19,679 nucleotides of DNA. Origin: Candidatus Hadarchaeales archaeon (GTDB lineage Archaea; Hadarchaeota; Hadarchaeia; Hadarchaeales; Hadarchaeaceae). Shown in pieces: positions 2 to 17,675 of the stretch (positions within the stretch are counted from its first letter, which is position 1; every line of letters begins with the position of its first letter). The position numbers and the translations under genes were made by a program. The notes beneath the pieces were generated by a model. The model saw only the letters and a program-made list of their open reading frames with translations. It was not told the origin of the DNA and did no database searches. The DNA lies in assembly GCA_038872135.1 (NCBI GenBank), contig JAVZGN010000017.1, forward strand, positions 2,668 through 22,346, in the 5' to 3' direction.

Positions 2-1810
2 GAAACTCTGGTCAGTGGCGACCTGCACCTCATAGACGAGTGGGTAGGAGTTTTCATCTACTGTCTGCCAGTCCAGCATCGGAGTGTTGTTTTTGTTTTC
101 CCCAAGGGCGTCGTTGCCGAGGTTCTCTCCGTTGGCCGGATGGAGGAGCGGGAGGACAGCCGGCGGAATTGTGTCCACGCGGAACTGCCATGTCTCGGAG
201 TTGTCTGAGTTTGATCCAGTCCTTGTCATTCGCACGCGCCAGTAGTAGACTCCATCTGAAAGTTCGATGAAGTCTTGGTCGAAGTCGTAGCTTGAAGCGC
301 TCAAAACCTTTTCGACAATGTAGGGGGGAGTGAATGTAGGTTCATCGTCAACCCAGAGAGCGAAGGAGTCGGCTGGCTGGAGGTTGTCCCAGTCAAGCGT
401 CGGGGCTTTGTCGTTCAAGTTCTTCCCGTTTTCTGGGGTGAGCAGAACTGGAGCGGGGATTGGGGCGGCGATGGTGGATGTCCAGCCTTCAGCCAGCTGC
501 CACTGAGCCGTTGTCGTGATAGTGTCAGTCCAGTCCTCTCTGAGCGCCCAGCCCGTTATCGGAGCATTCACCGCCGCCGTCCAGCTCTCCACCAGAATCC
601 ATCTGCGCAGGCTCACCTTGAAGACGTAAGACCACTCGTTCTCGTTGCCCACGAAGTCCCTCGCCTTCACCCTCCAGTAGTAGGTGCCGTAGGAGGAGAA
701 GTTGAAGAGATATGTGTTTTCACTTGGCGGGCGGAGGGTGTTCTCTGTGAAAGGCGAGGTAAAGGTTGGCTCATCATCAATCTGAATCCAGTAGTTTTCA
801 ATTCCAGATTCTCCATCGCTCGCCCAATACCACTGGAAGTTGACGCTTAGAGTTTCCAGGTCGGCGTTGTTCTCAGGCTTGTACAAGGAGACGACGGTTG
901 GCGGGCGGTTGTCAACAACGAATGAAAGTACCGCGGAGTTCTCCGAGATGTTCCAGATGTTGTCTCTTGCGGAGACCTTCCAGTAGTAGGTTGTGTTGTT
1001 TGCGGTTGCCGGGATGGCAATCCAGTTGTCATCGGTTATCCATCCCGAGGTCTGGGTTGCGGCCGCTGGGAACCCTGGGTCGGTGGAGATGTATACCTGA
1101 TAGTAAATGGGCGTTGTCATCTCGGTGTTTCCGGCGTTGTCCAGCGTTACGGCGGGCCAGTCCAGGTTTGGCTGCGGGCGGACATACTGCGGGGTGGCGA
1201 TTGGAGATGGGACGGCCGGGGGCTTTGTGTCAATTCTGAAGCTCCAGTAGTATGAGGTGTAGAGCCCCTCGTTCCCTGCGTTGTCCTTTGCCTTGACCTT
1301 CCAGTAATAGGTGCCGTCAGAGAGCTCTGAGACCTCGTGGAAGTTGTCGGAGAGCCATGGGCTTGGGTTGTATCCCGGGACGAGGTCGGTGAAACTTGTG
1401 TTGCGGGAAATCATAAGCTGGTAGGTGAGGGGATAGGAGTTTTCGTCTGGAACGGTCCACTTCAACCGTGGGGTGTTGTCGTTGGTGATGGTGCCGTCTG
1501 CTGGAGAGTAGAGGTCCGGCGGGCTCGGGGCAAGGGTGTCGACTCTGAAGCTCCACGGGGCAACCCAGGCATACCATTTGTTGTTGTACCTCCTCTGGAC
1601 CCTCCAGTAGTAGGGATTGTCCGCGAGAGGAGATGTCGGCGTCCATGTGTTTTCGCTTCCAGGGATATTTTCGTTGTCGACCACAGGGTTTGTAAAGTTG
1701 ATATCTGTGGCGATCTGGATGTGGTAGTTGTCGGCGGCAACAGTTTCCCAGTAAAATGTTGGGGTTGGATTGTTTGTTGTAGAGCCGTTCGCCGGGGAGA
1801 TGAGGTTGGG
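2..1810 (-). repeat. Array of about 100-aa Fn3/Ig-like repeats (five complete, one cut by the window edge) within the giant protein
   Basis: Recurring pattern P.L.sP.NG....TP...W.....Y..Q...D..F....YYW.V....W.F.VD; approximate units 1810-1530, 1530-1225, 1225-915, 915-610, 460-170, 170-<1. Confidence 0.8.
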
Positions 1811-4800
1811 AAGGGTTGAGGCGTTTATCTTCACCCAGTCGACCTTTGGGCCGCTAGCCCCTGTCAAGTTTGCAGTGTTGGTCGAGAAGTATATCCTGTA
1901 CTGGATGTAGCGGTTGTCGGGGATGTTCTCCATCGACGTTGTTGCGGCCTCAAAATAGGTGTTTGAGGTTCCGCTGGGGCCCATCCAGTCCGTCCAGCTG
2001 ATGTTGTCTTCGCTCACCCTGAGCTGTAGCTTCACATCCGATGTCCCCCAGAAGGCTTCCTCTATCCTCACCATGTCTAGAATGACATAAGTTGTGGTGG
2101 AGTCGGAGGGGTTGCTGTCTTCAAACTTTACATGGATGTTGTCCCCATCAAGATAATTGGAAATTGGCGAGAGGCGGAATGTTCTCGTGCTGGGGGTGTT
2201 CTTCGGTATGTAGTCGTTGAGGAATTCCCAGCTGTTTGTGCTCACATTCCAAACGTAGATGTATATGTCCTCGACGACTGGGTCTCCGTAGGCATAGCCG
2301 CGGATTTTCAGGTCGTAGTTCTCGTATCCTGTACCCACGCCCGTAATTGTGTGCTGCCACCTGAGGGACTGACCAGGCGCAAGCAGTTTTATTTCTCTGA
2401 CTCGGACATAATCAAGCATCAAGCTGGTCTGTTTGATATCTGACTGCGGTTGCCTGAAGCGGACACGGACCATCCCAGTACCCAAAATATAGTTTGTACC
2501 TGTTATGTCGTAGGTGAACGTGTTGGGAGAACTTGGCGTCCCTCCGCTCAGTGTTCCAACCTGGTCCCACTGGCCAGTGAAGAAGTTCCAGAGGTAGACA
2601 TAAGCAGGTTCTGTATCCCCGCTCTCACCTGTGACATAGTACCTGACCTGAAGCTCGTAGTTGTCCTTTGAAGGGGCCGCCATGATCGTGTGCTCCACGT
2701 CGAAGTATCTTGCAAATGGATAAATGATGGCCATGTTCATATTTTCAGTATAGGTAGTGGAGGCGCCGCCTATCCAATGTTTAAGTGCAAATGTGTTGGT
2801 TCCAGCCGTCAGGTTTGCCCGTTTCAGGAAGAGTCCGGAGATGTAGGGGGCGGCCGACCTCTGTGTATCACCTGCCTCAGAGCAGTTTTCGCTGCCAATC
2901 CAGAAACCATTGAAAGCGGGTACGGTTGCTGAACCGCTTCTGTACAGGCTGGACGCCATGGCAAGGTGATATCCTGTGTTGGCGATGGTCGGGGAATAAA
3001 CAAACGCGTTGGTAGGAGTTGTTGAAGCAGTGCTCCCCCGCTCCATGTTCTCGTTCTCATAATATATCATGCCAGCCAAAGGTATGGCAACTATCCTCGC
3101 CCTCTTCGCTGTACCAGTTCCACCGCTCGTCCACCCGCCCAACCTGATGGTGTGTTGGTTGGCGTCAAGGTTTTCCACAACCATGTATGCAAATGATCTG
3201 TAATCGTTGGCCGCGGTCGTCCATAGAGCAAATGTGTCGTTTTCAACTACACCGCCGTCAATTTGTAGATTGAGATAGACCCCTCTGTTGGCAGTTCCAT
3301 GGGTTGCCTCAGAGGAGACCAAGATTAGGTAGTTATCTGGTTGTGGTGGAGTAAACGTCAGGGAGGTGATTTCACTGAATGAAGTCGTTAGACCTTTTGC
3401 AGTTTCCCTTTCGGAGTACTGTGTACCGCTTGGTAGCTTGAAGGCAACGATTTTTGCATGTCGCGCATAAGCAGTGTCCGTAGCAACGCCTGAATTGTAT
3501 GTTATCTCAGCGGTGTGCTCCGTGGCGTCAAGAGCAATTTTTTTGACCCACCCTATGTTTGTTCTTGAAGTTGTTGCCCGCTCCACGATGTATGTCTCTC
3601 CGTAAACAGTACCATCAATTGTGAATGTGGCGTAAACTTTGTTGGCTGTAGAAGATGAGCCGATTTCAACGCTTGCGATAATAAGATACTCCCCTGCAGA
3701 CGGTGTGAATGTCAGCGTGACAGCAGGAGTAGGCACATCTGATGTTATACTTTGTTCGGCTTCCACATTTTCGTAGTAAATGAGTTCAACTAAATTCTCG
3801 GAGATGTTTTCGTAGTTCAGATCTGCCGCCTTCGCATTCTCAAAGTCGATGGTTGTCCCATCATATACATTTTCTGTTGAAACATAAGAGTAGGTTATCT
3901 GTTGGCTTCCTCCCCCAGTGCTAGCCTCGCTCAGGTTCTCCACGGAGCCATCATCCGGCTGCCTGGTATTCTCATAGCTTCCCTGCCACTGCGTTCCCAC
4001 CCTGCTGCTTCCATCTTTGAGAGTATCCGGCTCTGCTCCAACATAGTCGATATCTGAAGCCGGCTGCTGTGGCTCAACAAAGCTCCACTGGAGGTTGTCC
4101 CACTCAGCAACTCCTCCAGCGTCGAAAACTCTGGAGGTAAACCGACCTTGAGTGTAGTTTTGAATCAGTCTCACATAGTTGTCGACATTCTCCGTGTTCT
4201 CATGAGTTCCTTGGGAGTAGTCTATGTCTGTGTTGTCGACAATGGAGAAGATGGAGAAACCCGGAGTGGAGGCAAGTATGCGGAGGCTTGCGGAGTCCTC
4301 CCCAGCCTCGGCCACAGGGAGGCTCTCCCACCTTGCCCCTCCAAAGTGGTAGACCTCAACCCTGCTCCCTCTCCACAGTGTTCCTTGGAGCCAATCCTTT
4401 GGAACCTCAAACTCTATCTCCGCCTCTTGAATCTCTTCGTTCAGCAGCGATGTCGAGATTTCAGCATAAGCCAGAACCCTTTTCCCCTCCAGAGCAGGAA
4501 CTCCTGCCGGCAGCGCCTCGAGCAGCTCCACCGAGACCTCAGCATCGTTTAGGTCAGCCTTCGGAGCAATCCTAACAGCTTTCACAGCCCCTTCATTAAC
4601 CTGAGCAATCCCCTTCTCCCCTGCTCTCAGCGCACCCATCCTCACCCTCTTGACCTTTTCAACACGGCTGAGAGACACATCATAGGCCTTCGGCCCTGTA
4701 GCCCCGCTGAGAGCAGGGCTTTCGCTGGAGAGGACAACGCGATATTGGAGGAAGCGTCCAACGAGAACCCTGCGGCCATCGGCGTCCTCCCACCCGCTCC

Positions 4801-6082
4801 ATCCAACCCCGTCCCTGCTCACCCTCGCCTGCACCCTAGCGGAGGAGTTGCGGATGACCGCCCTCTCAACAGCGCAGTAGTCGATGCTGAGGCTCGCAGC
4901 TTCGCCATCATACTTCACATAGACGCTCCCGCCAACTAGGTGCTTCCTCTCAAGGGTTTTTTCAACAGCTTTCCTCACATTGTCGAGAGTGCCGGCAGCC
5001 TCCCAGCCTGAGCCATCCCAGATGTAAACGGTGACCTGTCCATCCGCCGTCTGCCCAACCACCCTCAGGACAAGATTTTCAGCACCACCGGCGACATCGA
5101 TCCTGTGCTGCCACCTGAGTAGATGTCCAGCATTTCCCGGCGCAGGGTTTTCAGGGATCGCGTTTTCCTCCACAGCTGGAAGGTTCTCTTCAACCACAGC
5201 AGCGTTTTCACCGGTTGTTAGGAATTCAGTGTTTTCCTCCGTGGAAGCAAGGTTTTCCTCGGCTACAACGGCAGTTTCCCCCGCAAGATTGTCCTCAACC
5301 ACAGCGATGTTCTCTTCACTCGCCGGAAGCTCCGTGGTTTCGACAGGGGTTTGGATGTTTTCCTCGATGGTGACTGAAACTTCTTGGAACTCAGCTGGGC
5401 TTTCAGACGTCAAGTAGAGCGTCCTCCCTTCGGTCTCCCCAGCAGTCATAACAGGCTCCCCGGCGATGATTTCAGAGTTTCCGTCTATCCCGGAGAGGCT
5501 CGTGGGCGACCCAGCCGCCCTAGTCCCGATTCTTTCCATCCCGTCGACGAGCACCTCGGCCTCCTCAGCAACTCCAAAGACCAGGACCCCTGGGATTGAC
5601 GGCTCCTCTTTCTTCCAGGAGAGCTCCCACCTCACAATCCTCTCGGCGGAGATGATCTCGGAAGTGTAAGCCCCAGAAGTGTAGCCATAGATGAGCCTCA
5701 GAACCCCCCCGACATTCTCCACATTCTCAAATGTTCCAGCGGGAGGGGCGAGGGCTTCCTCAGCGGCCGCAAGAGGAACAGGAATTGGAGAAAGAATCAT
5801 GGAGAAGCAGATGAAAAGGGAAATCGCGCGGTAAAAGAAAAGGCCCCAGTCGTGGGGGGTAGCGGGAGCGGCACCCACTTCAAAGTTCAGGGCACCGCTC
5901 CCGCCGGTTGGGGGTGGAAAATCAGCTTGAGTGGGGGTCTTGGGGAGCGGCACCCCCTGCAATGTCTGGGGCACCGCTCCCCGGGGGGATGAAAAATTAG
6001 AGGAAGAGGGGGCCGGGGAATGAGCATTAGAAATAGAGCAATTCAACGGGATATCTGCCGATTGGGAACATCTATACGACAT
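2..6082 (-). CDS. Giant secreted/cell-surface protein (at least 2027 aa, 3' end outside the window): signal peptide, duplicated beta-rich module, internal PGF-pre-PGF domain, three tandem jelly-roll-like repeats, at least 6 Fn3/Ig-like repeats
   Basis: Manual translation of the minus frame shows no stop from the upstream TAG (6131-6133) to position 2. The first ATG is at 6082; the true start may be GTG 5878. Hydrophobic signal-like stretch WGLFFYRAISLFICFSMILSPIPVPLAAA|EE; ASTPGFSIFSI near 4260; repeated DGTYYWKVKAKDNAGN / YYWRV...WSFRVDT motifs at 1-1810; many N-x-S/T sequons. Confidence 0.93.
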   Translation of the reverse strand, partial: MSYRCSQSADIPLNCSISNAHSPAPSSSNFSSPRGAVPQTLQGVPLPKTPTQADFPPPTGGSGALNFEVGAAPATPHDWGLFFYRAISLFICFSMILSPIPVPLAAAEEALAPPAGTFENVENVGGVLRLIYGYTSGAYTSEIISAERIVRWELSWKKEEPSIPGVLVFGVAEEAEVLVDGMERIGTRAAGSPTSLSGIDGNSEIIAGEPVMTAGETEGRTLYLTSESPAEFQEVSVTIEENIQTPVETTELPASEENIAVVEDNLAGETAVVAEENLASTEENTEFLTTGENAAVVEENLPAVEENAIPENPAPGNAGHLLRWQHRIDVAGGAENLVLRVVGQTADGQVTVYIWDGSGWEAAGTLDNVRKAVEKTLERKHLVGGSVYVKYDGEAASLSIDYCAVERAVIRNSSARVQARVSRDGVGWSGWEDADGRRVLVGRFLQYRVVLSSESPALSGATGPKAYDVSLSRVEKVKRVRMGALRAGEKGIAQVNEGAVKAVRIAPKADLNDAEVSVELLEALPAGVPALEGKRVLAYAEISTSLLNEEIQEAEIEFEVPKDWLQGTLWRGSRVEVYHFGGARWESLPVAEAGEDSASLRILASTPGFSIFSIVDNTDIDYSQGTHENTENVDNYVRLIQNYTQGRFTSRVFDAGGVAEWDNLQWSFVEPQQPASDIDYVGAEPDTLKDGSSRVGTQWQGSYENTRQPDDGSVENLSEASTGGGSQQITYSYVSTENVYDGTTIDFENAKAADLNYENISENLVELIYYENVEAEQSITSDVPTPAVTLTFTPSAGEYLIIASVEIGSSSTANKVYATFTIDGTVYGETYIVERATTSRTNIGWVKKIALDATEHTAEITYNSGVATDTAYARHAKIVAFKLPSGTQYSERETAKGLTTSFSEITSLTFTPPQPDNYLILVSSEATHGTANRGVYLNLQIDGGVVENDTFALWTTAANDYRSFAYMVVENLDANQHTIRLGGWTSGGTGTAKRARIVAIPLAGMIYYENENMERGSTASTTPTNAFVYSPTIANTGYHLAMASSLYRSGSATVPAFNGFWIGSENCSEAGDTQRSAAPYISGLFLKRANLTAGTNTFALKHWIGGASTTYTENMNMAIIYPFARYFDVEHTIMAAPSKDNYELQVRYYVTGESGDTEPAYVYLWNFFTGQWDQVGTLSGGTPSSPNTFTYDITGTNYILGTGMVRVRFRQPQSDIKQTSLMLDYVRVREIKLLAPGQSLRWQHTITGVGTGYENYDLKIRGYAYGDPVVEDIYIYVWNVSTNSWEFLNDYIPKNTPSTRTFRLSPISNYLDGDNIHVKFEDSNPSDSTTTYVILDMVRIEEAFWGTSDVKLQLRVSEDNISWTDWMGPSGTSNTYFEAATTSMENIPDNRYIQYRIYFSTNTANLTGASGPKVDWVKINASTLPNLISPANGSTTNNPTPTFYWETVAADNYHIQIATDINFTNPVVDNENIPGSENTWTPTSPLADNPYYWRVQRRYNNKWYAWVAPWSFRVDTLAPSPPDLYSPADGTITNDNTPRLKWTVPDENSYPLTYQLMISRNTSFTDLVPGYNPSPWLSDNFHEVSELSDGTYYWKVKAKDNAGNEGLYTSYYWSFRIDTKPPAVPSPIATPQYVRPQPNLDWPAVTLDNAGNTEMTTPIYYQVYISTDPGFPAAATQTSGWITDDNWIAIPATANNTTYYWKVSARDNIWNISENSAVLSFVVDNRPPTVVSLYKPENNADLETLSVNFQWYWASDGESGIENYWIQIDDEPTFTSPFTENTLRPPSENTYLFNFSSYGTYYWRVKARDFVGNENEWSYVFKVSLRRWILVESWTAAVNAPITGWALREDWTDTITTTAQWQLAEGWTSTIAAPIPAPVLLTPENGKNLNDKAPTLDWDNLQPADSFALWVDDEPTFTPPYIVEKVLSASSYDFDQDFIELSDGVYYWRVRMTRTGSNSDNSETWQFRVDTIPPAVLPLLHPANGENLGNDALGENKNNTPMLDWQTVDENSYPLVYEVQVATDQSF
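2717..3781 (-). repeat. Three tandem diverged repeats of about 118 aa within the giant protein
   Basis: Shared elements: LTFTPSAGEYLIIAS / LTFTPPQPDNYLILVS / YSPTIANTGYHLAMAS; LDATEHTAEI / LDANQHTIRL / LTAGTNTFAL; ARHAKIVAF / AKRARIVAI / TENMNMAII. Confidence 0.75.
5852..6000 (-). repeat. Tandem duplication with a period of about 79 bp; each copy forms a 15-bp GC-rich hairpin
   Basis: Arms at 5862-5876/5890-5904 and 5942-5956/5968-5982; the core gggagcggcaccc...gggcaccgctccc recurs at offset 79. Confidence 0.88.
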
Positions 6083-11938: not shown

Positions 11939-12412
11939 TCAAATCCCCCACACAACTGGAGAAATCTCGGTCAGCACACATAAAATTCTTCTCCTCTGTT
12001 CCTCGGTCAGCTTTTCTATCGCGGGAAAAATCACTTCTTCCTCTAGGGCGAAGTGTTTCTTCATGAACTCTATCAGAGTTTTTGCAGAGCGGACGGCCGA
12101 GTTCTTCATCTTCTCTTCCCGGTATTCAACAGCTCTTGCTATATCTTTCTTGGCCACCGAGAGTATCCTTTCCCAATCATCTGCTTCCATGTCGGTAAAC
12201 TTCACCGGGAGCTTTCTCGGAATCATGTCTAGTTCAGCGTAAATCGTCTCCTTTTCCAAATTGAAGTGATCCCAGAGATTCTCCACCAGTCTCACAAGCC
12301 TCTCAAGGACTTTCCAAACATCGGCCTCTTTTGAAAGCATCTTCTCTATTGTAGCTATCTCCTTCAAAGCCCCTTCATGTTCAGTTTTCAGATATTCCAC
12401 TATCTCGTTCAT
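11939..12412 (-). CDS. Hemerythrin/HHE cation-binding domain protein
   Basis: LKTEH, HFNLE..TIY and HFALEEEVIFP motifs; all-helical pattern. Confidence 0.82.
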   Translation of the reverse strand: MNEIVEYLKTEHEGALKEIATIEKMLSKEADVWKVLERLVRLVENLWDHFNLEKETIYAELDMIPRKLPVKFTDMEADDWERILSVAKKDIARAVEYREEKMKNSAVRSAKTLIEFMKKHFALEEEVIFPAIEKLTEEQRRRILCVLTEISPVVWGI

Positions 12413-12421
12413 ACAATTCCC

Positions 12422-13051
12422 CTACTTTAGCACCTCTCCAGTTTTTAAATACCAGAGGAAGAGGTCAAGCTCTCCTGGGGGCATCTTCACCCTCTTCGCC
12501 ATTGAACAGAACTTTTTCTCATACTCGAGATATCTCCTTCTCGTGAGGGCACCACCCCCCCAATCTATAATGCCATTTTCCTTCATGAGAGATAGGATGT
12601 GGCGGTCCAGGATGGCGAAATCCAAGAACCCAACATTTCTCAGAAAATGGCTTGCCTCCTTGTATCCTATGCCCAATACATTTGAAGCTAGCCACTCCCT
12701 CATCTCGGTGGGATCTTCCATCTCCAGCAAAATCTCCTTTATTTTCAGATATCTCCTGGCAGCCACGATGAACCTTGCCCTCTGGCTGTAAAACCTGTGG
12801 CCGGCCTCTCTCAGCTTCTTCACCAGTGTTGAAAACGGCAGATGGATGAATCCATCGCTTCCAAGCTCCTCCTGAATTTTTATCCCAAGCTTTGCTGAGG
12901 AGTTGGCGGTGAGAATGCAGAAGCACAGCTCAGAGAACCACCGTTCATCCCCTTCCATGCCGGTTCTTTTGAATTCATCAATCCGCCGAGCCACAGTTTC
13001 CCCCACTTCGCCTCTTTTGAGATCCATCACCAGCTCCACCAGCTTCTCCAT
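12422..13051 (-). CDS. ogg: 8-oxoguanine DNA glycosylase/AP lyase (Ogg2-type N-glycosylase/DNA lyase)
   Basis: ELCFCILTANSSA, HhH motif GIGYKEASHFLRNVG, AILDRH, C-terminal TGEVLK ending in the characteristic Lys. Confidence 0.95.
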   Translation of the reverse strand: MEKLVELVMDLKRGEVGETVARRIDEFKRTGMEGDERWFSELCFCILTANSSAKLGIKIQEELGSDGFIHLPFSTLVKKLREAGHRFYSQRARFIVAARRYLKIKEILLEMEDPTEMREWLASNVLGIGYKEASHFLRNVGFLDFAILDRHILSLMKENGIIDWGGGALTRRRYLEYEKKFCSMAKRVKMPPGELDLFLWYLKTGEVLK

Positions 13052-13099: not shown

Positions 13100-15550
13100 A
13101 TGGTTGGAGGATATGCTGGCAGGATCCTCAGAGTAAACCTGGCTGAGAAAAAGATTGTAGATGAGCCGCTAGATCTGAGAATTGCATACAATTTTCTGGG
13201 GGGACGTGGTTATGGAGCATACATCCTCTACAAAGAGCTGAAGCCGAAAGTAGATCCACTTTCTCAAAATAACAAAATTGTGGTGATGACCGGTCCTCTC
13301 ACAGGAACGATGTTCCCGGGAGCCGGCAGAACTGCAGTTTGTTCAAAATCTCCATTGACAGGCACAATAGCGGATTCTCTCATGGGCGGTTCATTTGGAG
13401 TTTTTCTCAAGCGGGCCTTATTCGATGGAATCATTATTGAGGGCAAGGCCGAAAAACCGGTTTATCTTGTGGTTGAGGATGGCGAGGCTTCTCTCGAGGA
13501 CGCCGGCGATATCTGGAGCAGGGGAACAGCCGAGACAAAGGAGCTCCTCCTTAAAAAACATCCCGGCTCCTCCGTCGCAGCAATTGGGCCGGCTGGAGAA
13601 AACCTCTGTAGATTCTCGACAATTTCATCTGGTGGTAGTGGCAGGGACGGCATCGCTGGGAGATGCGGCATGGGGACGGTGATGGGGTCAAAAAATCTCA
13701 AGGCGATAGTGGCATGTGGCTCGGCGAAAATCGAGATCTCCGATGAGAAAAATGCTCAGAAGCTCTTGAGGAAGATAAGGGGGCTTGTGGAAAACCATCC
13801 GATAACAGGCTCAGATGGAAGTCTCGCGAGATTTGGAACTGGAGTCCTCGTTCACAAGATAGCATCCGCCGGTCTTCTCCCATCCTTCAACTTTTCAAAC
13901 AAAAAACTTGATTACAAAGAGGTAGACCCATTCTCCGGGGAAACTGTAAAGGAAAAATATCTCTTGAGACGCACAGCCTGCTTTGCATGTCCAACCGCCT
14001 GCGGTAGATGGGTGAGGGTTGGAGTTTGGGAAGGAAAGGGTCCAGAGTTCGAGAGTGTGGCGATGCTCGGCCCAAACGCCGGCTTTTTTGATTATGAGAA
14101 AGAGATAGTCCCTCTGAGCAACCTTTGCGACGATTTGGGTCTAGACACAATTTCCGCTGGTGCCTTGTTGGGCTACCTCAGGAAAGCCGGCAAGATAACC
14201 AGCGTTGGTGATGCAGTGAAGGTTCTGCAAGATGCAGCTTCTGGAAAATCGCTTTTCAGCTTGGGCTTGGCGGAAGTAGCCAAGAAGATTCGTGGTCCGG
14301 TAGCTCCAGTGGTTAAAGGACTGGAAATGCCCGCTTACGATCCCAGAGGGGCAAGGGGGATCGCCCTGGCTTATGCTACCTCAAACAGAGGGGCCTGCCA
14401 CCTCCGGGCATACACCATCGCCCCGGAAATCTACAGCAACCCAGAGTTCGTGGATCCATCAACAGAAGTAGGAAAAGCATCTCTGGTTAAAAAAATCCAG
14501 GATGCTTACGCCGTCTACGATTCCTTGGTGGCATGCAAGTTTCACAGTTTTGCGCTCTTTGCTACTCTCGACTTTGAGTTAGATGATATCGCAAGGCTCC
14601 TGACAGCCGTCACAGGGTTAATGTGGACTGGAAAGCATCTGAAGGAGGTCGGAGCCAGAATCTATTCTCTCGAAAGAATGTTCAATGTGAGAGAGGGTTT
14701 CACGGCAAAGGATGATTCACTGCCAAAGGAGTTCGGAATAAATCTCCAACGCATGCTTTCAGAGTATTACAGGGAGAGGGGCTGGAGCGCCTCGGGGGTG
14801 CCGAAGAAGACAATTCAACTGAGAAATGTTAGGAGGGGAAAGCTAGGTGATTTCAAGCTCACCCCACTGGAAGGTCTGAAGTTCCCACAACTTCAGGTGG
14901 CTCTAGACCTGGATGCAGATCTCTCCACAATTGAGAAAATAGCAAAAGAAGCCTACGCTGGAGGGGCGAGAATAATTGAGGCTGGCACCCCGGCGATCAA
15001 AAGGCATGGCGTGGAGAAGCTCCTGCCTAGGCTTAGAAAGGCTGCTCCGGAAGCGATCCTGGTGGCAGACCTAAAGACAATGGATGTGGGAAATCTTGAG
15101 GCGAGGATTGCTTTTAGGGCGGGAGCGGATATCTCGGCAGTTTTGGCGATAGGCGGAAAAGCGAAGATAGTTGAGGCAGTGGGCGAAGCCATCCGCTGGG
15201 ACAGGGCAATTCTAATAGATTTCATCGATTGCCAGGACCCGCTGGCGGTGATGGAAGATTTGGCAAAGGAACTGGTTGGACATGAAGACAGGGTAATCTT
15301 TTGCATTCACAGGGGGATAAGCGAGCAGCTGAAGGGCCGGGGGATCCACGAGCAGGCCCAGCTGATAGCCGAGGCAAAGAAGATCGCGGGCAGGTTCCCA
15401 CTTGCAGTGGCCGGGGGGATAAAGGAAGGAGTGGCAAAGGATGTGGCTGCGGCAGGAGCGGACATTTGCATCGCCGGAGGCGCCATCTACAACTCTGCTG
15501 ATCCAAGAGAAGCCGCAAGGAGAATCCTGAAAGAAATAGTTTCCAAGTGA
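13100..15550 (+). CDS. Fusion protein: tungstopterin aldehyde:ferredoxin oxidoreductase (AOR/FOR family, aa 1 to about 570) plus 3-hexulose-6-phosphate synthase-like domain (HPS/KGPDC, aa about 596-816)
   Basis: AOR part: GGRG, KSPLTG, IGPAGEN, GR.GMG.VMGSKNLKAI, CFACPTAC plus distal C (ACKF), GPEFE, DDLGLDTIS, RGACH, YYRERGW..GVP. HPS part: LQVALD, IEAGTP.IK.G, ADLKTMD, HRG, VAGGI, GGAI. No stop in the linker. Confidence 0.93.
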   Translation: MVGGYAGRILRVNLAEKKIVDEPLDLRIAYNFLGGRGYGAYILYKELKPKVDPLSQNNKIVVMTGPLTGTMFPGAGRTAVCSKSPLTGTIADSLMGGSFGVFLKRALFDGIIIEGKAEKPVYLVVEDGEASLEDAGDIWSRGTAETKELLLKKHPGSSVAAIGPAGENLCRFSTISSGGSGRDGIAGRCGMGTVMGSKNLKAIVACGSAKIEISDEKNAQKLLRKIRGLVENHPITGSDGSLARFGTGVLVHKIASAGLLPSFNFSNKKLDYKEVDPFSGETVKEKYLLRRTACFACPTACGRWVRVGVWEGKGPEFESVAMLGPNAGFFDYEKEIVPLSNLCDDLGLDTISAGALLGYLRKAGKITSVGDAVKVLQDAASGKSLFSLGLAEVAKKIRGPVAPVVKGLEMPAYDPRGARGIALAYATSNRGACHLRAYTIAPEIYSNPEFVDPSTEVGKASLVKKIQDAYAVYDSLVACKFHSFALFATLDFELDDIARLLTAVTGLMWTGKHLKEVGARIYSLERMFNVREGFTAKDDSLPKEFGINLQRMLSEYYRERGWSASGVPKKTIQLRNVRRGKLGDFKLTPLEGLKFPQLQVALDLDADLSTIEKIAKEAYAGGARIIEAGTPAIKRHGVEKLLPRLRKAAPEAILVADLKTMDVGNLEARIAFRAGADISAVLAIGGKAKIVEAVGEAIRWDRAILIDFIDCQDPLAVMEDLAKELVGHEDRVIFCIHRGISEQLKGRGIHEQAQLIAEAKKIAGRFPLAVAGGIKEGVAKDVAAAGADICIAGGAIYNSADPREAARRILKEIVSK

Positions 15551-15623
15551 TATTGTCTCTAAAAACGATCACCGCTGCGACAGGCCATCATCACTTTTCT
15601 CCAGCAGAAAGCGGCGGCTGAAA

Positions 15624-17675
15624 TCACTGAGAAGATTTTTCCGGATAGGGAGTTGTTTCAATCATTACTGGGCTTTCTCCCACAGGCTCTCTGAGGATAG
15701 CAATTCTCGCCTCCTCGGCAACCTCTGCAACCGGCAGGGGGAGGTTTGCCAGCTGGTGAAGAACTTCGGCCGCTTGCAGAATCCCCCTCTGGAGATCCCC
15801 TTCCTCCGCCGATGATCTTCTCACCAGCTCAGCCCACTCCACTTCTCCCTCCGCCCACCTGAGGAGAGCGCCGGCCATCATGGTAGCAGAGCTTTTTCTC
15901 CCGCCTTCGAAGGCTTCTCCAAAGTTCGATCGCTCAACACCATGGATCTTTTCAAGGGCGTCAAGCTCAAAGGCTATTTTTGCCAGCGGCTTCAGGTTTA
16001 CCGTTGCAACAAGATTTCGTGGAGCTCTTTCAGCGACAACAGCCCCCGCCCATCCCGCCATCTCTTCTGCTGTGAGATTTTCCATCAGGCCCCGCTTGAG
16101 CGCCTCGGTGATTAGAAGTGATCTCTCAACCCTTACCATCGCCGCCCACTTTCCGATGGTTGTGAGTTTCCATTCATCATCAAGGTATCCAAGTCTCCTC
16201 AGGATGGTGGCCTTCGCCATGAACTCAGACTTCAGCCTCCTCTCCACCACCTCAGCCTTTTTCCTGCTTCGCCGGTGAGTCTGGAAAACAGCGAGACTTT
16301 TGCCCACCACTTCCAGGGCATCCTTCATCTCCATTCCCGAGAGAAGGTTCAAAATCTGATAATACTGGACCCTGAAAGCAGAAAACAGCTCTTCAGGAGC
16401 GCTTTTCGCAAGCTCTTCAGCCATCCTAATATCCGCAGGGCTGTGGGGAATCACAAGCACAAAGCCAACCTTGTCTTTTCCCCTCCTCCCAGCTCTCCCG
16501 GTCATCTGGTGGAATTCTAGGGCGCTCAGCGGCCTCTCCCCTTTTTTGTCTCCGACCCAGAGGGTCGGCAGGACAACGCTTCTGGCCGGAACATCAAGCC
16601 CGGCGGCCAAGGTTGTTGTGGCGAAGACAACATTCACAAGACCGGCGGCCAGCATCCTCTCGACGGCAATCTTCCAGGCGGTGATGTGCCCGGCGTGATG
16701 AGGAGCAACACCCCCGTTTATGAGAATTTTAGCCATGGGATGATTTGAAATCCAGGGATATGCTTTTGCAAGCTCGGAGAACATTCCGCTTCTTTCATTT
16801 CTCCCATCAGCCACGACATTTCTGAAGGATAGAGCTGCAAGATCGCAGTCCCTCCTCCTCGGGAGAAAAATTATGGCAGGCAGTAGATCGAGAGAATCAA
16901 GCATTCTTGCAGTTTTTACCGGGTCAAAGAACCTCCAGAACAGCCTCCGCCCTCTTCTGGGTAATCTAATACCCAGTGGGAGAGCCCTTCCCGAAGAGTC
17001 AAGCATCCCATACCTAAGGGGCACAGGTCTTTCCTCCGGCGGTACGGAAATCAGGGTTGGAGCTTTTCCCCTCACTTCAGCCATCCAATCGGCGATTTCC
17101 TCAGCATTGGCAATGGTTGCCGAAAGCAGGAGGAGGCGGACATCGGGAGGGCTGAAGATGATTATCTCCTCCCAAGTGACTCCCCTCTCTTCCTCTCCTA
17201 TGTAATGGGCTTCGTCCAGAACCACAATCTTTGCATCAGCCTTCCCCTCATAGAGGCGATTCCGGAAAATCTCTGTTGTGGCAACAAGCACTTGGGCGTC
17301 AGGATTTTCCTGTCTCTCCCCTGTCAGTAGCCCAACCCTCCCTTCCCCAAAGATTTCTCTGAATCTATCATACTTCTGGTTGCTGAGAGCTTTAAGGGGA
17401 GTAGTGTACCAGCACCGCCCCCCAATCTTTAGAAATCTCTCAATGGCTTTTTCAGCGATCCAAGTCTTCCCGCTCCCCGTTGGCGCAACAACAATCGTGT
17501 CATTTTCAACAACAGAAGCGAGAGCTCTACTCTGGAATGGTGAGGGGACAAATGGCTGGGGTTCAGGCTCTCCAAGTCCTTTAAGGAATTCCTCAGCAAT
17601 TCTGTCAAGATGTTTCAATTCTATCCCCGAAACCTCAACCAGCTCAGACCTTCCCGAGTGATTCCTGCTTTTCAA
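15624..17675 (-). CDS. Ski2-like SF2 helicase, HelY/Ski2/Mtr4 type, with a DSHCT-like C-terminus
   Basis: [65 protein letters not shown] near the C-terminus; start uncertain (TTG 17675 or TTG 17618). Confidence 0.9.

What the first reader, a model, noticed from the sequence alone, without database searches (positions are those of the whole stretch)
13100..15550. AOR/FOR-HPS fusion: candidate single-chain formaldehyde release and oxidation enzyme
Seen: a compact but apparently complete AOR (four Fe-S Cys, DxxGLD pterin motif, GPEFE Glu, RGACH His) is joined in frame, through a linker of about 25 aa (about 14805-14880), to an HPS-type TIM barrel with the DxKxxD motif intact. Established: many archaea make ribulose-5-phosphate by the reverse ribulose monophosphate (RuMP) pathway, in which HPS releases toxic formaldehyde. 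Known fusions are HPS-PHI (Thermococcales) and Fae-HPS (methanogens), the latter trapping formaldehyde on H4MPT. Tungsten formaldehyde:ferredoxin oxidoreductases oxidise formaldehyde to formate. Inference: this is a third solution, in which the formaldehyde is oxidised by the fused domain to formate and reduced ferredoxin; alternatively it is a branch point between fixation and oxidation. I know of no description of this fusion but could not search. The HPS HxxxD motif reads HRGIS here, so altered activity is possible.
Basis: partly seen in the sequence, partly recalled or inferred. Interest (0 to 1): 0.92.

Follow-up and report, generated by a model that had tools for sequence, protein, structure and literature searches.

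The report
Tungsten aldehyde oxidoreductase fused to hexulose-phosphate synthase
One archaeal gene joins the sugar-phosphate enzyme that releases (or fixes) formaldehyde to a tungsten-type enzyme that oxidises aldehydes; the fusion is conserved in many archaea, I found no paper on it, and it probably handles toxic formaldehyde on the spot.

Summary
Window 13100-15550 (+) is one 816-aa ORF with AFOR_N, AFOR_C and an HPS-type OMPdecase barrel. All cofactor and catalytic residues of both halves are intact.

It is not an assembly artefact. 112 of the 120 best database clusters share the architecture, and an independent metagenome contig bridges the linker without indels.

Within Hadarchaeota, 22 of 66 genomes carry it. 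None of the 22 has the H4MPT marker MCH, and 18 of 22 have a separate PHI. In this genome it is the only HPS.

Bathyarchaeia carry a split form in which the AOR stop codon directly abuts the start of the HPS-like gene.

Best reading (about 0.55): reverse RuMP cleavage, with the formaldehyde oxidised to formate and reduced ferredoxin.

- The AOR half is nearer AOR than FOR.
- The genome also has transketolase and transaldolase.
- Five of five Bathyarchaeia carriers do have MCH.
- Two sister species keep the barrel with no AOR at all.

Nine literature searches found no description. This scan met the fusion twice before on other DNA.

The parts
13100..15550 (+). Whole fusion gene, 816 aa. It is monocistronic: it diverges from ogg (12422-13051, -) and converges with a Ski2-like helicase gene (15624-17675, -).
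13118..13720 (+). AFOR_N domain, aa 7-207. Includes the invariant pterin-phosphate arginines R77 and R188.
   Evidence: E 7e-75; R77 and R188 in 109/109
13763..14812 (+). AFOR_C domains 2 and 3, aa 222-571. This is a compact version: profile positions 2-378 of 385, with short deletions relative to 1AOR.
13979..14002 (+). [4Fe-4S] motif C294-x2-C297-x3-C301. The fourth ligand, C479, lies at 14534-14536.
   Evidence: 109/109 each; equivalent to Cys288/291/295/494 of 1AOR
14045..14053 (+). E316-F-E318. E318 is the equivalent of the active-site Glu313 of P. furiosus AOR.
14129..14146 (+). Pterin-binding motif D344-D-L-G347-L-D349 (DxxGLD).
   Evidence: G347 and D349 in 109/109
14399..14401 (+). 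H434, the equivalent of the active-site His448 of AOR.
14519..14536 (+). Second pterin/cluster motif, D474-x4-C479.
   Evidence: equivalent to Asp489 and Cys494 of 1AOR
14813..14884 (+). Interdomain linker, aa 572-595. In the split Bathyarchaeia genes the break lies just upstream of it, about aa 564 (the A of 'RGWSASGVP'), so the linker becomes part of the N-terminal extension of the HPS-like protein.
   Evidence: modelled at pLDDT 85-94
14885..15526 (+). HPS-type OMPdecase-fold barrel, aa 596-809.
15068..15085 (+). D657-L-K659-T-M-D662 (DxKxxD). E627, the Mg ligand upstream, lies at 14978-14980.
   Evidence: invariant in all 223 sequences compared
15308..15322 (+). H737-R-G-I740-S741. The catalytic His is kept, position 139 is hydrophobic as in HPS, and position 140 is Asp-to-Ser. 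The change is typical of AOR-associated forms.

Best explanation
The gene encodes a bifunctional enzyme of an uncultured Hadarchaeota archaeon. The C-terminal barrel is a diverged 3-hexulose-6-phosphate synthase. It works with the separately encoded PHI. In the reverse ribulose-monophosphate direction it cleaves hexulose-6-phosphate (made from fructose-6-phosphate) into ribulose-5-phosphate and formaldehyde. The N-terminal tungstopterin/[4Fe-4S] AOR-type domain, on the same polypeptide, oxidises that formaldehyde to formate and passes two electrons to ferredoxin.

The fusion would keep free formaldehyde low and pull an otherwise unfavourable cleavage. The net reaction would be hexose-P to pentose-P + formate + reduced ferredoxin, a ferredoxin-linked counterpart of the oxidative pentose-phosphate branch.

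Shown: the architecture, its conservation, intact catalytic residues, and the genomic co-occurrence patterns.

Inferred: the substrates, the direction of flux, and any channelling.
For: 1. Both halves look catalytically competent. AOR cofactor and active-site residues are invariant in 109/109 aligned fusions. HPS residues Q599, D603, E627, T630, K634, D657, K659, D662, E667, D707 and H737 are invariant in the fused records (109) and in canonical HPS (89), and in the short class-1 records (25) apart from end gaps or a single odd record.

2. The barrel has HPS identity. The best PDB matches are HPS 9lj9 and 3ajx at 101 bits, against KGPDC at 31-35 bits. D707, I740 and A771 align with the E112D/R139V/T169A substitutions of the KGPDC mutant 1xbx.

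3. It is the sole HPS hit in the genome (136 bits; the next hit is 23 bits). PHI is over its cut-off at 205 bits.

4. Phylogenetic profile, order level (31 genomes). The fusion is the only HPS hit in 11 of 12 carriers, and 11 of 12 have PHI. The 9 genomes with no clear HPS hit (8 with none, G017 with a weak 63-bit match) have PHI in 0 of 9.

5. Phylogenetic profile, phylum level (66 genomes). There are 22 carriers. MCH is in 0 of 22 carriers and in 17 of 44 others, with contrasts inside genera g8 and g15. PHI is in 18 of 22 carriers.

6. Fission keeps the pair together. In 4 of 4 Bathyarchaeia loci examined, the AOR stop codon is followed immediately, in the same frame, by the start of a 269-284-aa HPS-like gene: TGA in 2 and TAG in 1 of the 3 junctions read, the fourth (L028) inferred from ORF coordinates. 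That gene is the only HPS hit in those 4 genomes.

7. The AOR domains of both fusion classes fall in one AOR clade (support 94-95). The HPS domains fall into different HPS subfamilies (100* branch; AU p 0.024). This suggests the pairing arose or was renewed more than once.

8. The sister AOR paralogs sit next to aldolase genes. A DeoC-type aldolase lies 8 bp upstream in this genome. In G007 the order is DHDPS-type aldolase, AOR, SIS, SIS. This is the same 'lyase releases an aldehyde, AOR oxidises it' logic.

9. The AF2 model is confident throughout (pLDDT 94.5, pTM 0.91, linker 85-94).
Against: - No biochemical data exist for any member.
- The AOR half is closer to broad-specificity AORs than to FOR.
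- The class-1 barrel scores 132-145 bits against TIGR03128 (cut-off 200) in 3 of 3 tested. It also carries Ser where 87 of 89 canonical HPS, and KGPDC, have Asp.
- The genome has transketolase, transaldolase and RpiA, so pentoses need not come from reverse RuMP.
- No formate dehydrogenase or formate-THF ligase was found to consume the formate (the genome is 91% complete).
- All 5 Bathyarchaeia carriers examined have MCH, so absence of the H4MPT route is not a general condition.
- G003 (95% complete) and G002, of the same genus, keep a stand-alone barrel and PHI but have no AFOR_C hit. The lyase can therefore do without the AOR.
- Related genomes are not independent, so the profile counts overstate the support.
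Confidence: 0.55

Rival explanations
1. Same enzyme, opposite physiological direction. The AOR domain uses low-potential reduced ferredoxin to reduce formate to formaldehyde. The fused HPS traps it at once on ribulose-5-phosphate, which pulls an unfavourable reduction. The result is formate assimilation through a RuMP cycle.
For: - The genome has the enzymes to regenerate Ru5P: transketolase, transaldolase and RpiA, plus PHI.
- No formate-consuming FdhA or FTHFS was found, so formate is not obviously a dead-end product that needs removal, nor is it otherwise assimilable.
- AOR-family enzymes are known to reduce carboxylic acids (recalled; from no call).
- Fusing the two would make thermodynamic sense in this direction too (inference).
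Against: - No source of formate is evident in the genome: FdhA was not found, and PFL was not searched.
- The formate/formaldehyde couple is very negative (recalled, about -0.53 V).
- In archaea HPS/PHI is generally assigned to pentose synthesis (passages in PMC4725937 and PMC7143981).
- Sister species keep the barrel without any AOR, which fits a lyase role that does not depend on supplied formaldehyde.
Confidence: 0.15
2. The class-1 barrel is no longer an HPS. It is a diverged OMPdecase-fold lyase or decarboxylase acting on another keto-sugar phosphate. The AOR half oxidises a different aldehyde product, or a general pool of aldehydes.
For: - The barrel scores below the HPS equivalog cut-off (132 against 200).
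- The Asp-to-Ser change at position 741 is fixed in class 1: S in 62 and T in 4 of 66 fused, and S in 25 of 25 short records.
- The loop 741-750 is the only low-confidence part of the model.
- The AOR half is nearest to broad-specificity AORs.
Against: - All HPS catalytic and Mg-binding residues are kept, as are the three HPS-versus-KGPDC specificity positions.
- It is the only HPS candidate in genomes that keep a PHI over cut-off.
- Class-2 fusions have barrels over the HPS cut-off (204, 211 and 204 bits), attached to the same AOR clade. 16 of 43 of them keep Asp.
Confidence: 0.12
3. The fusion only secures co-expression or stoichiometry. The two activities are not kinetically coupled, there is no channelling, and the AOR half is a general aldehyde detoxifier.
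For: - The complex prediction gave no usable verdict, and no interface could be examined.
- The genome has six other AOR-family genes.
- The barrel works without an AOR in G003 and G002.
Against: - The pairing has been kept for a long time, in two sequence classes and in a translationally abutted split form.
- The linker is confidently modelled rather than floppy.
- The AOR clade involved is specific to this pairing.
Confidence: 0.1
4. Assembly or gene-calling artefact: two adjacent genes wrongly joined.
For: None found.
Against: - 112 of 120 best clusters from many sources have the same architecture.
- 18 full-length copies occur among the 66 genomes of the phylum.
- Contigs from two studies cross the junction without indels.
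- Substitutions follow a codon-position-3 pattern across the linker and barrel.
Confidence: 0.01

Closest known systems
Fae-Hps bifunctional enzyme of methanogens and Archaeoglobi (NCBIfam NF009833 / PRK13307)
   Same: An HPS barrel is fused to a second domain that deals with formaldehyde. The class-1 barrel groups on the Fae-HPS side of the HPS tree. Within Hadarchaeota the two solutions largely replace each other: Fae-HPS is in 5 of 31 genomes, and only G028 has both.
   Different: The partner here is a roughly 570-aa tungstopterin/[4Fe-4S] oxidoreductase at the N-terminus, not the 160-aa Fae. Formaldehyde would be oxidised to formate with ferredoxin reduction, instead of being condensed with H4MPT. 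No Fae domain is present.
Pyrococcus furiosus aldehyde:ferredoxin oxidoreductase (PDB 1AOR) and the related 9mqx_D and 9g7j AORs
   Same: The fold is the same (TM 0.88 on the target, rmsd 2.0-2.3 Å), at 36-40% identity. All four cluster cysteines, both pterin motifs, and the Glu313 and His448 equivalents are present.
   Different: The domain here is about 35 residues shorter, with deletions around aa 358-395 and before the C-terminal helix. It carries a C-terminal HPS barrel. No solved chain covers both domains.
P. furiosus formaldehyde:ferredoxin oxidoreductase (FOR, PDB 1B25/1B4N)
   Same: Same family and fold (TM 0.85). It is the enzyme whose name matches the proposed chemistry.
   Different: It is clearly more distant in sequence than AOR: 254 bits against 388-393. 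The fusion is not a member of the FOR branch by sequence.
3-hexulose-6-phosphate synthase (Mycobacterium gastri HPS, PDB 3AJX; HPS-PHI, PDB 9LJ9; TIGR03128)
   Same: Same barrel (TM 0.88-0.89 on the target for 3ajx and 3f4w, 0.53 for the two-domain 9lj9 chain; 30-34% identity). The Mg ligands, Lys, His, and the HPS-type residues at positions 112, 139 and 169 are the same.
   Different: It scores below the equivalog cut-off (132-136 against 200). It has Ser instead of Asp at the position after the catalytic-His turn. PHI is a separate gene here.
HPS-RraA-like fusion (NF005442, 'bifunctional hexulose-6-phosphate synthase/ribonuclease regulator')
   Same: It is another natural HPS fusion. Its barrels are the nearest relatives of the class-2 AOR-HPS barrels.
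   Different: The partner domain is different (PF03737) and sits C-terminal to the barrel. It has no redox cofactor.

Membership tests
AOR / tungsten oxidoreductase (WOR) family | AFOR_N and AFOR_C domains above Pfam gathering scores | tested here: met
   251.5 and 300.1 bits against cut-offs of 29.8 and 27
AOR / tungsten oxidoreductase (WOR) family | Four Cys ligands of the [4Fe-4S] cluster | tested here: met
   C294, C297, C301 and C479 align to Cys288/291/295/494 of 1AOR. They are invariant in 109/109 fusions.
AOR / tungsten oxidoreductase (WOR) family | Pterin-binding motifs and active-site Glu and His | tested here: met
   D344-D349, D474, E318 (equivalent to Glu313) and H434 (equivalent to His448)
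AOR / tungsten oxidoreductase (WOR) family | Bound tungsto-bispyranopterin and aldehyde-oxidising activity | not testable with these tools
   Needs purified protein
FOR subfamily (P. furiosus formaldehyde:ferredoxin oxidoreductase) | Closest characterised relative is FOR | tested here: not met
   FOR 1b25 scores 254 bits, against AOR 1aor at 388 and 9mqx at 393 bits
3-hexulose-6-phosphate synthase (TIGR03128 RuMP_HxlA) | Score over the curated equivalog cut-off (200 bits) | tested here: not met
   132 bits and 135.9 bits. Class-2 fusions do pass at 204, 211 and 204 bits.
3-hexulose-6-phosphate synthase (TIGR03128 RuMP_HxlA) | Mg ligands, Lys and His of the HPS/KGPDC active site | tested here: met
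   E627, D657, K659, D662, D707 and H737 are invariant with canonical HPS
3-hexulose-6-phosphate synthase (TIGR03128 RuMP_HxlA) | HPS-type rather than KGPDC-type residues at positions 112, 139 and 169 | tested here: met
   D707, I740 and A771 align with the D, V and A of the E112D/R139V/T169A KGPDC mutant 1xbx. That this mutant gains HPS activity is recalled.
3-hexulose-6-phosphate synthase (TIGR03128 RuMP_HxlA) | Asp after the catalytic His turn (HxGxD) | tested here: not met
   S741 here. Asp in 87 of 89 canonical HPS. The role of this Asp is unknown to me.
3-hexulose-6-phosphate synthase (TIGR03128 RuMP_HxlA) | PHI partner in the same genome | tested here: met
   TIGR03127 at 205 bits against a cut-off of 160, at G000:C13:13667-14227. 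Present in 18 of 22 carriers in the phylum.
3-hexulose-6-phosphate synthase (TIGR03128 RuMP_HxlA) | HPS activity | not testable with these tools
   Needs an assay
Fae-Hps | Fae domain (PF08714) | tested here: not met
   No Fae in the protein or in the genome
HPS-PHI fusion | SIS/PHI domain on the same chain | tested here: not met
   No SIS domain in the ORF. PHI is on another contig.

The most novel reading that the evidence does not exclude
The fusion is a natural, reversible, ferredoxin-linked C1 port on sugar-phosphate metabolism. In the reductive direction it would be a native formate-to-formaldehyde reductase, made workable by instant capture on ribulose-5-phosphate. That would give archaea a formate-assimilating RuMP cycle that needs no ATP activation of formate and no C1 carrier. 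In the oxidative direction, together with transketolase and transaldolase, it would form a cyclic, ferredoxin-yielding 'oxidative RuMP' route that strips hexoses to formate.
Probability: 0.15. Interest if true: 0.9.

Novelty: new variant of a known kind. Interest (0 to 1): 0.7.

Why it matters
Archaea that make pentoses by the reverse RuMP pathway release one formaldehyde per pentose. Only one dedicated enzymatic answer is textbook knowledge: Fae-Hps, which feeds formaldehyde to H4MPT.

A conserved fusion (and an abutted gene pair) of HPS with a tungsten aldehyde oxidoreductase points to a second, redox answer. It occurs in Hadarchaeota, Bathyarchaeia, Nezhaarchaeota, Methanomethylicia relatives and Asgard MAGs (source names).

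It would give a concrete physiological substrate to one clade of the AOR/WOR family. [quoted passage not shown]

It also defines a simple assay: hexulose-6-phosphate-dependent ferredoxin reduction.

If the enzyme runs in reverse, it bears on a bottleneck of engineered formate assimilation.

Tried and rejected
- Complex prediction of the AOR half (aa 1-578) against the barrel (aa 590-816), both as alignments: score 0.25 and 0.19 against a mark of 0.32. No verdict; not used as evidence either way.
- The look-up of sequencing runs: no RNA holder was listed, so nothing can be said about expression. The contigs laid leave parts of the ORF uncovered in single runs. This is not interpreted.
I could not measure the distance between the two active sites, locate S741 relative to the interface, or look for a tunnel.
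- The idea that the in-frame stop in the Bathyarchaeia split genes is recoded (Sec or Pyl) was rejected. The stop is TGA in two loci and TAG in a third, and a start codon follows at once.
- Proximity of the own-genome PHI to another AOR gene on contig C13 looked like a link. The genes between them are unrelated (Rce1-like, p27-like zinc ribbon), so I treat it as coincidence.
- A single origin of all AOR-linked barrels: the AU test gives p 0.024 against it. The group was named after seeing the tree, so this is only a weak rejection.
- Literature: searches found no paper describing the fusion.
Full report
**What is there**

Window 13100-15550 (+) is one ATG-started ORF of 816 aa. Pfam finds three domains:
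- AFOR_N, aa 7-207, E 7e-75
- AFOR_C, aa 222-571, E 3e-89
- OMPdecase/HUMPS, aa 596-809, E 2.5e-24

A 24-residue linker separates them (nt 14813-14884). It reads through without a stop.

NCBIfam ranks HPS-containing models first for the C-terminal part: HxlAB, Fae-Hps and HPS-RraA at 137-139 bits, and TIGR03128 at 132 bits. KGPDC scores 40-55 bits and PyrF 29-35 bits. The TIGR03128 score is below its 200-bit cut-off.

The gene stands alone. It diverges from an 8-oxoguanine glycosylase gene and converges with a Ski2-like helicase gene. A hemerythrin gene lies further upstream.

**Is it real?**

Of the 120 best clusters returned for the full protein:
- 112 carry all three domains at 41-68% identity over the full length
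- one is a truncated record
- seven are unfused AORs of 562-571 aa

Source names place them in Hadarchaeota, Bathyarchaeia, Nezhaarchaeota, Methanomethylicaceae, Hodarchaeales, 'Thaumarchaeota' and 'Thermoprotei' MAGs.

At 50% clustering the fused family collapses to a handful of representatives: P0062, P0241, the 992-aa P0242, and fragments. Beyond these lie ordinary AORs at 45% identity or less.

Contigs from hot-spring metagenome runs cross the junction:
- X1: 757 bases, 14142-14898, identical. This run may be the source sample.
- X2, from another study: 1438 bases, 14494-15650, 25 substitutions, no gaps.

Of the 20 listed in-ORF differences in X2, 19 are at third codon positions. Together they change one residue (A800V) and add no stop. 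The ORF is therefore under purifying selection across the linker and barrel.

**The AOR half**

I aligned 109 full-length fusions. I dropped the 622-, 696- and two 991-aa records and the seven unfused ones from the 120. Two classes emerge: class 1 (66 sequences, 46-68% identical to the query) and class 2 (43 sequences, 41-46%).

C294, C297, C301, C479, E316, E318, H434, D349, D474, R77 and R188 are invariant in 109 of 109. They align with Cys288/291/295/494, Glu313, His448 and Asp489 of 1AOR.

Against solved structures the domain scores:
- 393 bits (9mqx_D) and 388 bits (1aor)
- 361 bits (9g7j)
- 329 bits (AorB, 8c0z)
- 317 bits (WOR83)
- 254 bits against P. furiosus FOR
- 168 bits against WOR5

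By sequence it is an AOR-branch enzyme, not a FOR. The class-1 domain is compact, with several short deletions relative to 1AOR.

**The HPS half**

I compared four groups:
- fused class 1 (66)
- short class-1 records (25, a mix of stand-alone genes and contig-cut fragments)
- fused class 2 (43)
- 89 other HPS (Fae-HPS, HPS-RraA, stand-alone; at least two class-2 fragments among them)

Residues Q599, D603, E627, T630, K634, D657, K659, D662, E667, D707 and H737 never vary in the fused and canonical groups. The short class-1 records depart only by end gaps or one odd record.

Aligned to the KGPDC mutant 1xbx (E112D/R139V/T169A, with bound D-ribulose-5-phosphate), D707, I740 and A771 match the three mutated, HPS-like residues. 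That this mutant gains HPS activity is my recollection.

The one systematic oddity is position 741:

| Group | Residue at 741 |
|---|---|
| Canonical HPS | Asp in 87 of 89 (KGPDC also has Asp) |
| Fused class 1 | Ser in 62 and Thr in 4, of 66 |
| Short class-1 records | Ser in 25 of 25 |
| Fused class 2 | Ser in 27 and Asp in 16, of 43 |

Class-2 barrels pass the TIGR03128 cut-off (204, 211 and 204 bits; 3 of 3 tested). Class-1 barrels do not (132, 132 and 145 bits; 3 of 3).

**Structure**

AlphaFold2 with the 109-row alignment gives mean pLDDT 94.5 and pTM 0.91. The linker is at 85-94. Only the loop 741-750 is low, at about 50.

Foldseek finds AOR chains (TM on target 0.88) and HPS chains (0.88-0.89) separately. 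No solved chain covers both halves. I could not access the coordinates, so nothing can be said about a tunnel.

**Genome context**

The assembly is 1.08 Mb and 91% complete.

Present:
- a PHI over cut-off on another contig (205 against 160 bits)
- no HPS hit other than the fusion
- six further AOR-family genes
- transketolase, transaldolase and RpiA

Not found: Fae, MCH, FTHFS, FdhA and G6PD.

So the organism lacks the H4MPT and folate C1 routes that could absorb formaldehyde, but it does have a non-oxidative pentose-phosphate pathway.

**Phylogenetic profiles**

In 31 genomes of the same order, 12 carry the fusion: 10 intact, G018 broken near aa 661, and G028 cut by a contig end.
- In 11 of the 12 it is the only HPS hit at E ≤ 1e-15. 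G028 also has Fae-HPS.
- 11 of 12 have PHI over cut-off.
- Eight genomes have no HPS hit and one (G017) only a weak 63-bit match. None of these nine has PHI over cut-off.

Over the 66 genomes held for the phylum:
- 22 carry the fusion: 18 full length and 4 partial.
- MCH is present in 17 genomes and in none of the 22 carriers.
- The contrast holds inside genus g8 (G047 against G010, G017, G040) and genus g15 (G059, G060 against G021, G027, G030, G061, G062).
- PHI over cut-off is in 18 of 22 carriers. The four without it are 70-88% complete.

Fisher tests give p 3e-4 for MCH and p 2e-3 for PHI. Related genomes are not independent, so these are illustrative only.

**Results against a simple story**

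1. All five Bathyarchaeia genomes examined that carry the split or fused form have MCH.
2. G003 (95% complete, 9 contigs) and G002, of the same genus as the window's genome, have a stand-alone 232-aa class-1 barrel (G003; partial in G002) and PHI. They have no AFOR_C hit at all.
3. The non-oxidative pathway could supply pentoses without RuMP.

**Fission**

The seven unfused AORs nest inside class 1 in the AOR tree. In four of four Bathyarchaeia loci examined (L027, L028, L031, L033), the AOR gene ends at '...RGW-I-stop'. The next codon, in the same frame, is the GTG, ATG or TTG start of a 269-284-aa HPS-like gene that begins 'SGVP...'. This is just upstream of the linker of the fused protein, about aa 564.

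The stop is TGA, TGA and TAG in the three loci I read, so it is a true stop-start junction and not recoding. That gene is the only HPS hit in those four genomes. The pair thus stays abutted when it is not fused.

**Trees**

On 103 AOR sequences, fusion classes 1 and 2 form one clade (support 95). The clade also holds the nested unfused group, one fused fragment, and a long-branched set of five unfused representatives of unknown context.

Its neighbours include two paralogs:
- The own-genome paralog G000:C5 has a DeoC/LacD-type aldolase gene 8 bp upstream.
- The G007 paralog sits in a cluster ordered DHDPS-type aldolase, AOR, SIS, SIS.

So relatives of this AOR clade recur next to aldehyde-releasing lyases.

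The barrel tree is different. Class 1 groups on the Fae-HPS side and class 2 on the HPS-RraA side of a 100* branch. Forcing all AOR-linked barrels together costs 22.4 log-likelihood units (AU p 0.024; the group was chosen after seeing the tree). The pairing may therefore have arisen, or had its barrel replaced, more than once.

**Mechanism**

The best-supported reading has two steps:
- PHI and the barrel convert F6P via hexulose-6-P to Ru5P + formaldehyde.
- The AOR half oxidises the formaldehyde to formate, reducing ferredoxin.

From recalled, approximate thermodynamics, the lyase step is unfavourable and aldehyde oxidation with ferredoxin is favourable. The coupled reaction is near equilibrium, so keeping local formaldehyde very low would both detoxify and pull the cleavage. 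The same numbers mean the reverse (formate reduction pulled by HPS) cannot be excluded.

These could re-oxidise ferredoxin.

What happens to the formate is open.

**Literature**

Nine full-text searches returned no paper describing an AOR-HPS fusion. I read the matching passages of:
- PMC11291895, PMC7143981, PMC8065059, PMC6946796 and PMC4725937. These treat HPS/PHI and AOR as separate functions.
- The outline and term search of the 2026 WOR classification, PMC13328260. Its main text contains neither 'hexulose' nor 'fusion'.

Supplements were closed.

This scan met the same architecture twice before on other DNA (e1-3816669, a 999-aa DPANN form; e1-3524226) and reached similar readings.

**Verdict**

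'FOR' should read 'AOR-clade'. The direction of flux and channelling remain inference. The 'substitute for Fae/H4MPT' idea holds within Hadarchaeota but not generally.
- I class it as a new variant of a known kind (HPS fusions that deal with formaldehyde), undescribed in the literature I could search, and directly testable.

Noticed in passing
G000:C5:32746-35381 (L024:2746-5381): The closest unfused paralog of the fused AOR domain in this genome (45% identity) has a DeoC/LacD-family aldolase gene 8 bp upstream. An MFS transporter gene lies before that. This may be an aldolase-plus-AOR pair for another aldehyde.
   Followed up: partly
G007:C16:58736-62585 (L023:4736-8585, - strand): A cluster ordered DHDPS-family aldolase, AOR (47% identical to the fused domain), SIS, SIS. 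The two SIS genes score 146 and 133 bits against the PHI model, below its 160-bit cut-off. The same arrangement occurs in G016:C97.
   Followed up: partly
P0103, P0104, P0242 (991-992 aa): A longer class-2 variant has about 190 extra residues between the AOR and the barrel. Pfam reports two OMPdecase stretches, so it may carry a second, degenerate barrel. It resembles the 999-aa DPANN form noted earlier by the scan.
   Followed up: no
G003 and G002 (same genus); G003:C4:32711-33409 (L025:4711-5409): These sister species have no AOR-family gene at all (PF01314: 0 hits). They keep a stand-alone class-1 HPS-like gene with the Ser variant lineage, plus PHI. It lies in a different neighbourhood, beside a ketopantoate hydroxymethyltransferase gene.
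   Followed up: partly
G018:C14:10089-12577 (L026:2089-4577): The fusion gene is broken into two overlapping frames, of 679 aa and 159 aa, inside the barrel. This is a frameshift, a sequencing error or a pseudogene. No PHI was found in that genome (88% complete).
   Followed up: no
window 15320-15322 (S741): The Asp-to-Ser change next to the catalytic-His turn is nearly fixed in AOR-linked barrels and nearly absent elsewhere. It starts the only low-confidence loop of the model (aa 741-750). Its meaning is unexplained.
   Followed up: partly
window 2-6082 (-): An open-ended ORF of more than 2027 aa runs off the window. It is probably one of the giant surface proteins that this scan already noted in the same genome.
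   Followed up: no
window 11939-13051 (-): A hemerythrin-domain gene and an Ogg-type 8-oxoguanine glycosylase gene lie directly upstream of the fusion gene, diverging from it. This is an oxidative-damage pair beside an oxygen-sensitive enzyme gene.
   Followed up: no
P0328, P0260, P0286, P0360, P0362: Five unfused, long-branched AOR representatives fall inside the otherwise HPS-linked AOR clade, as a weakly supported sister of class 1. Their gene neighbourhoods could not be looked up.
   Followed up: no
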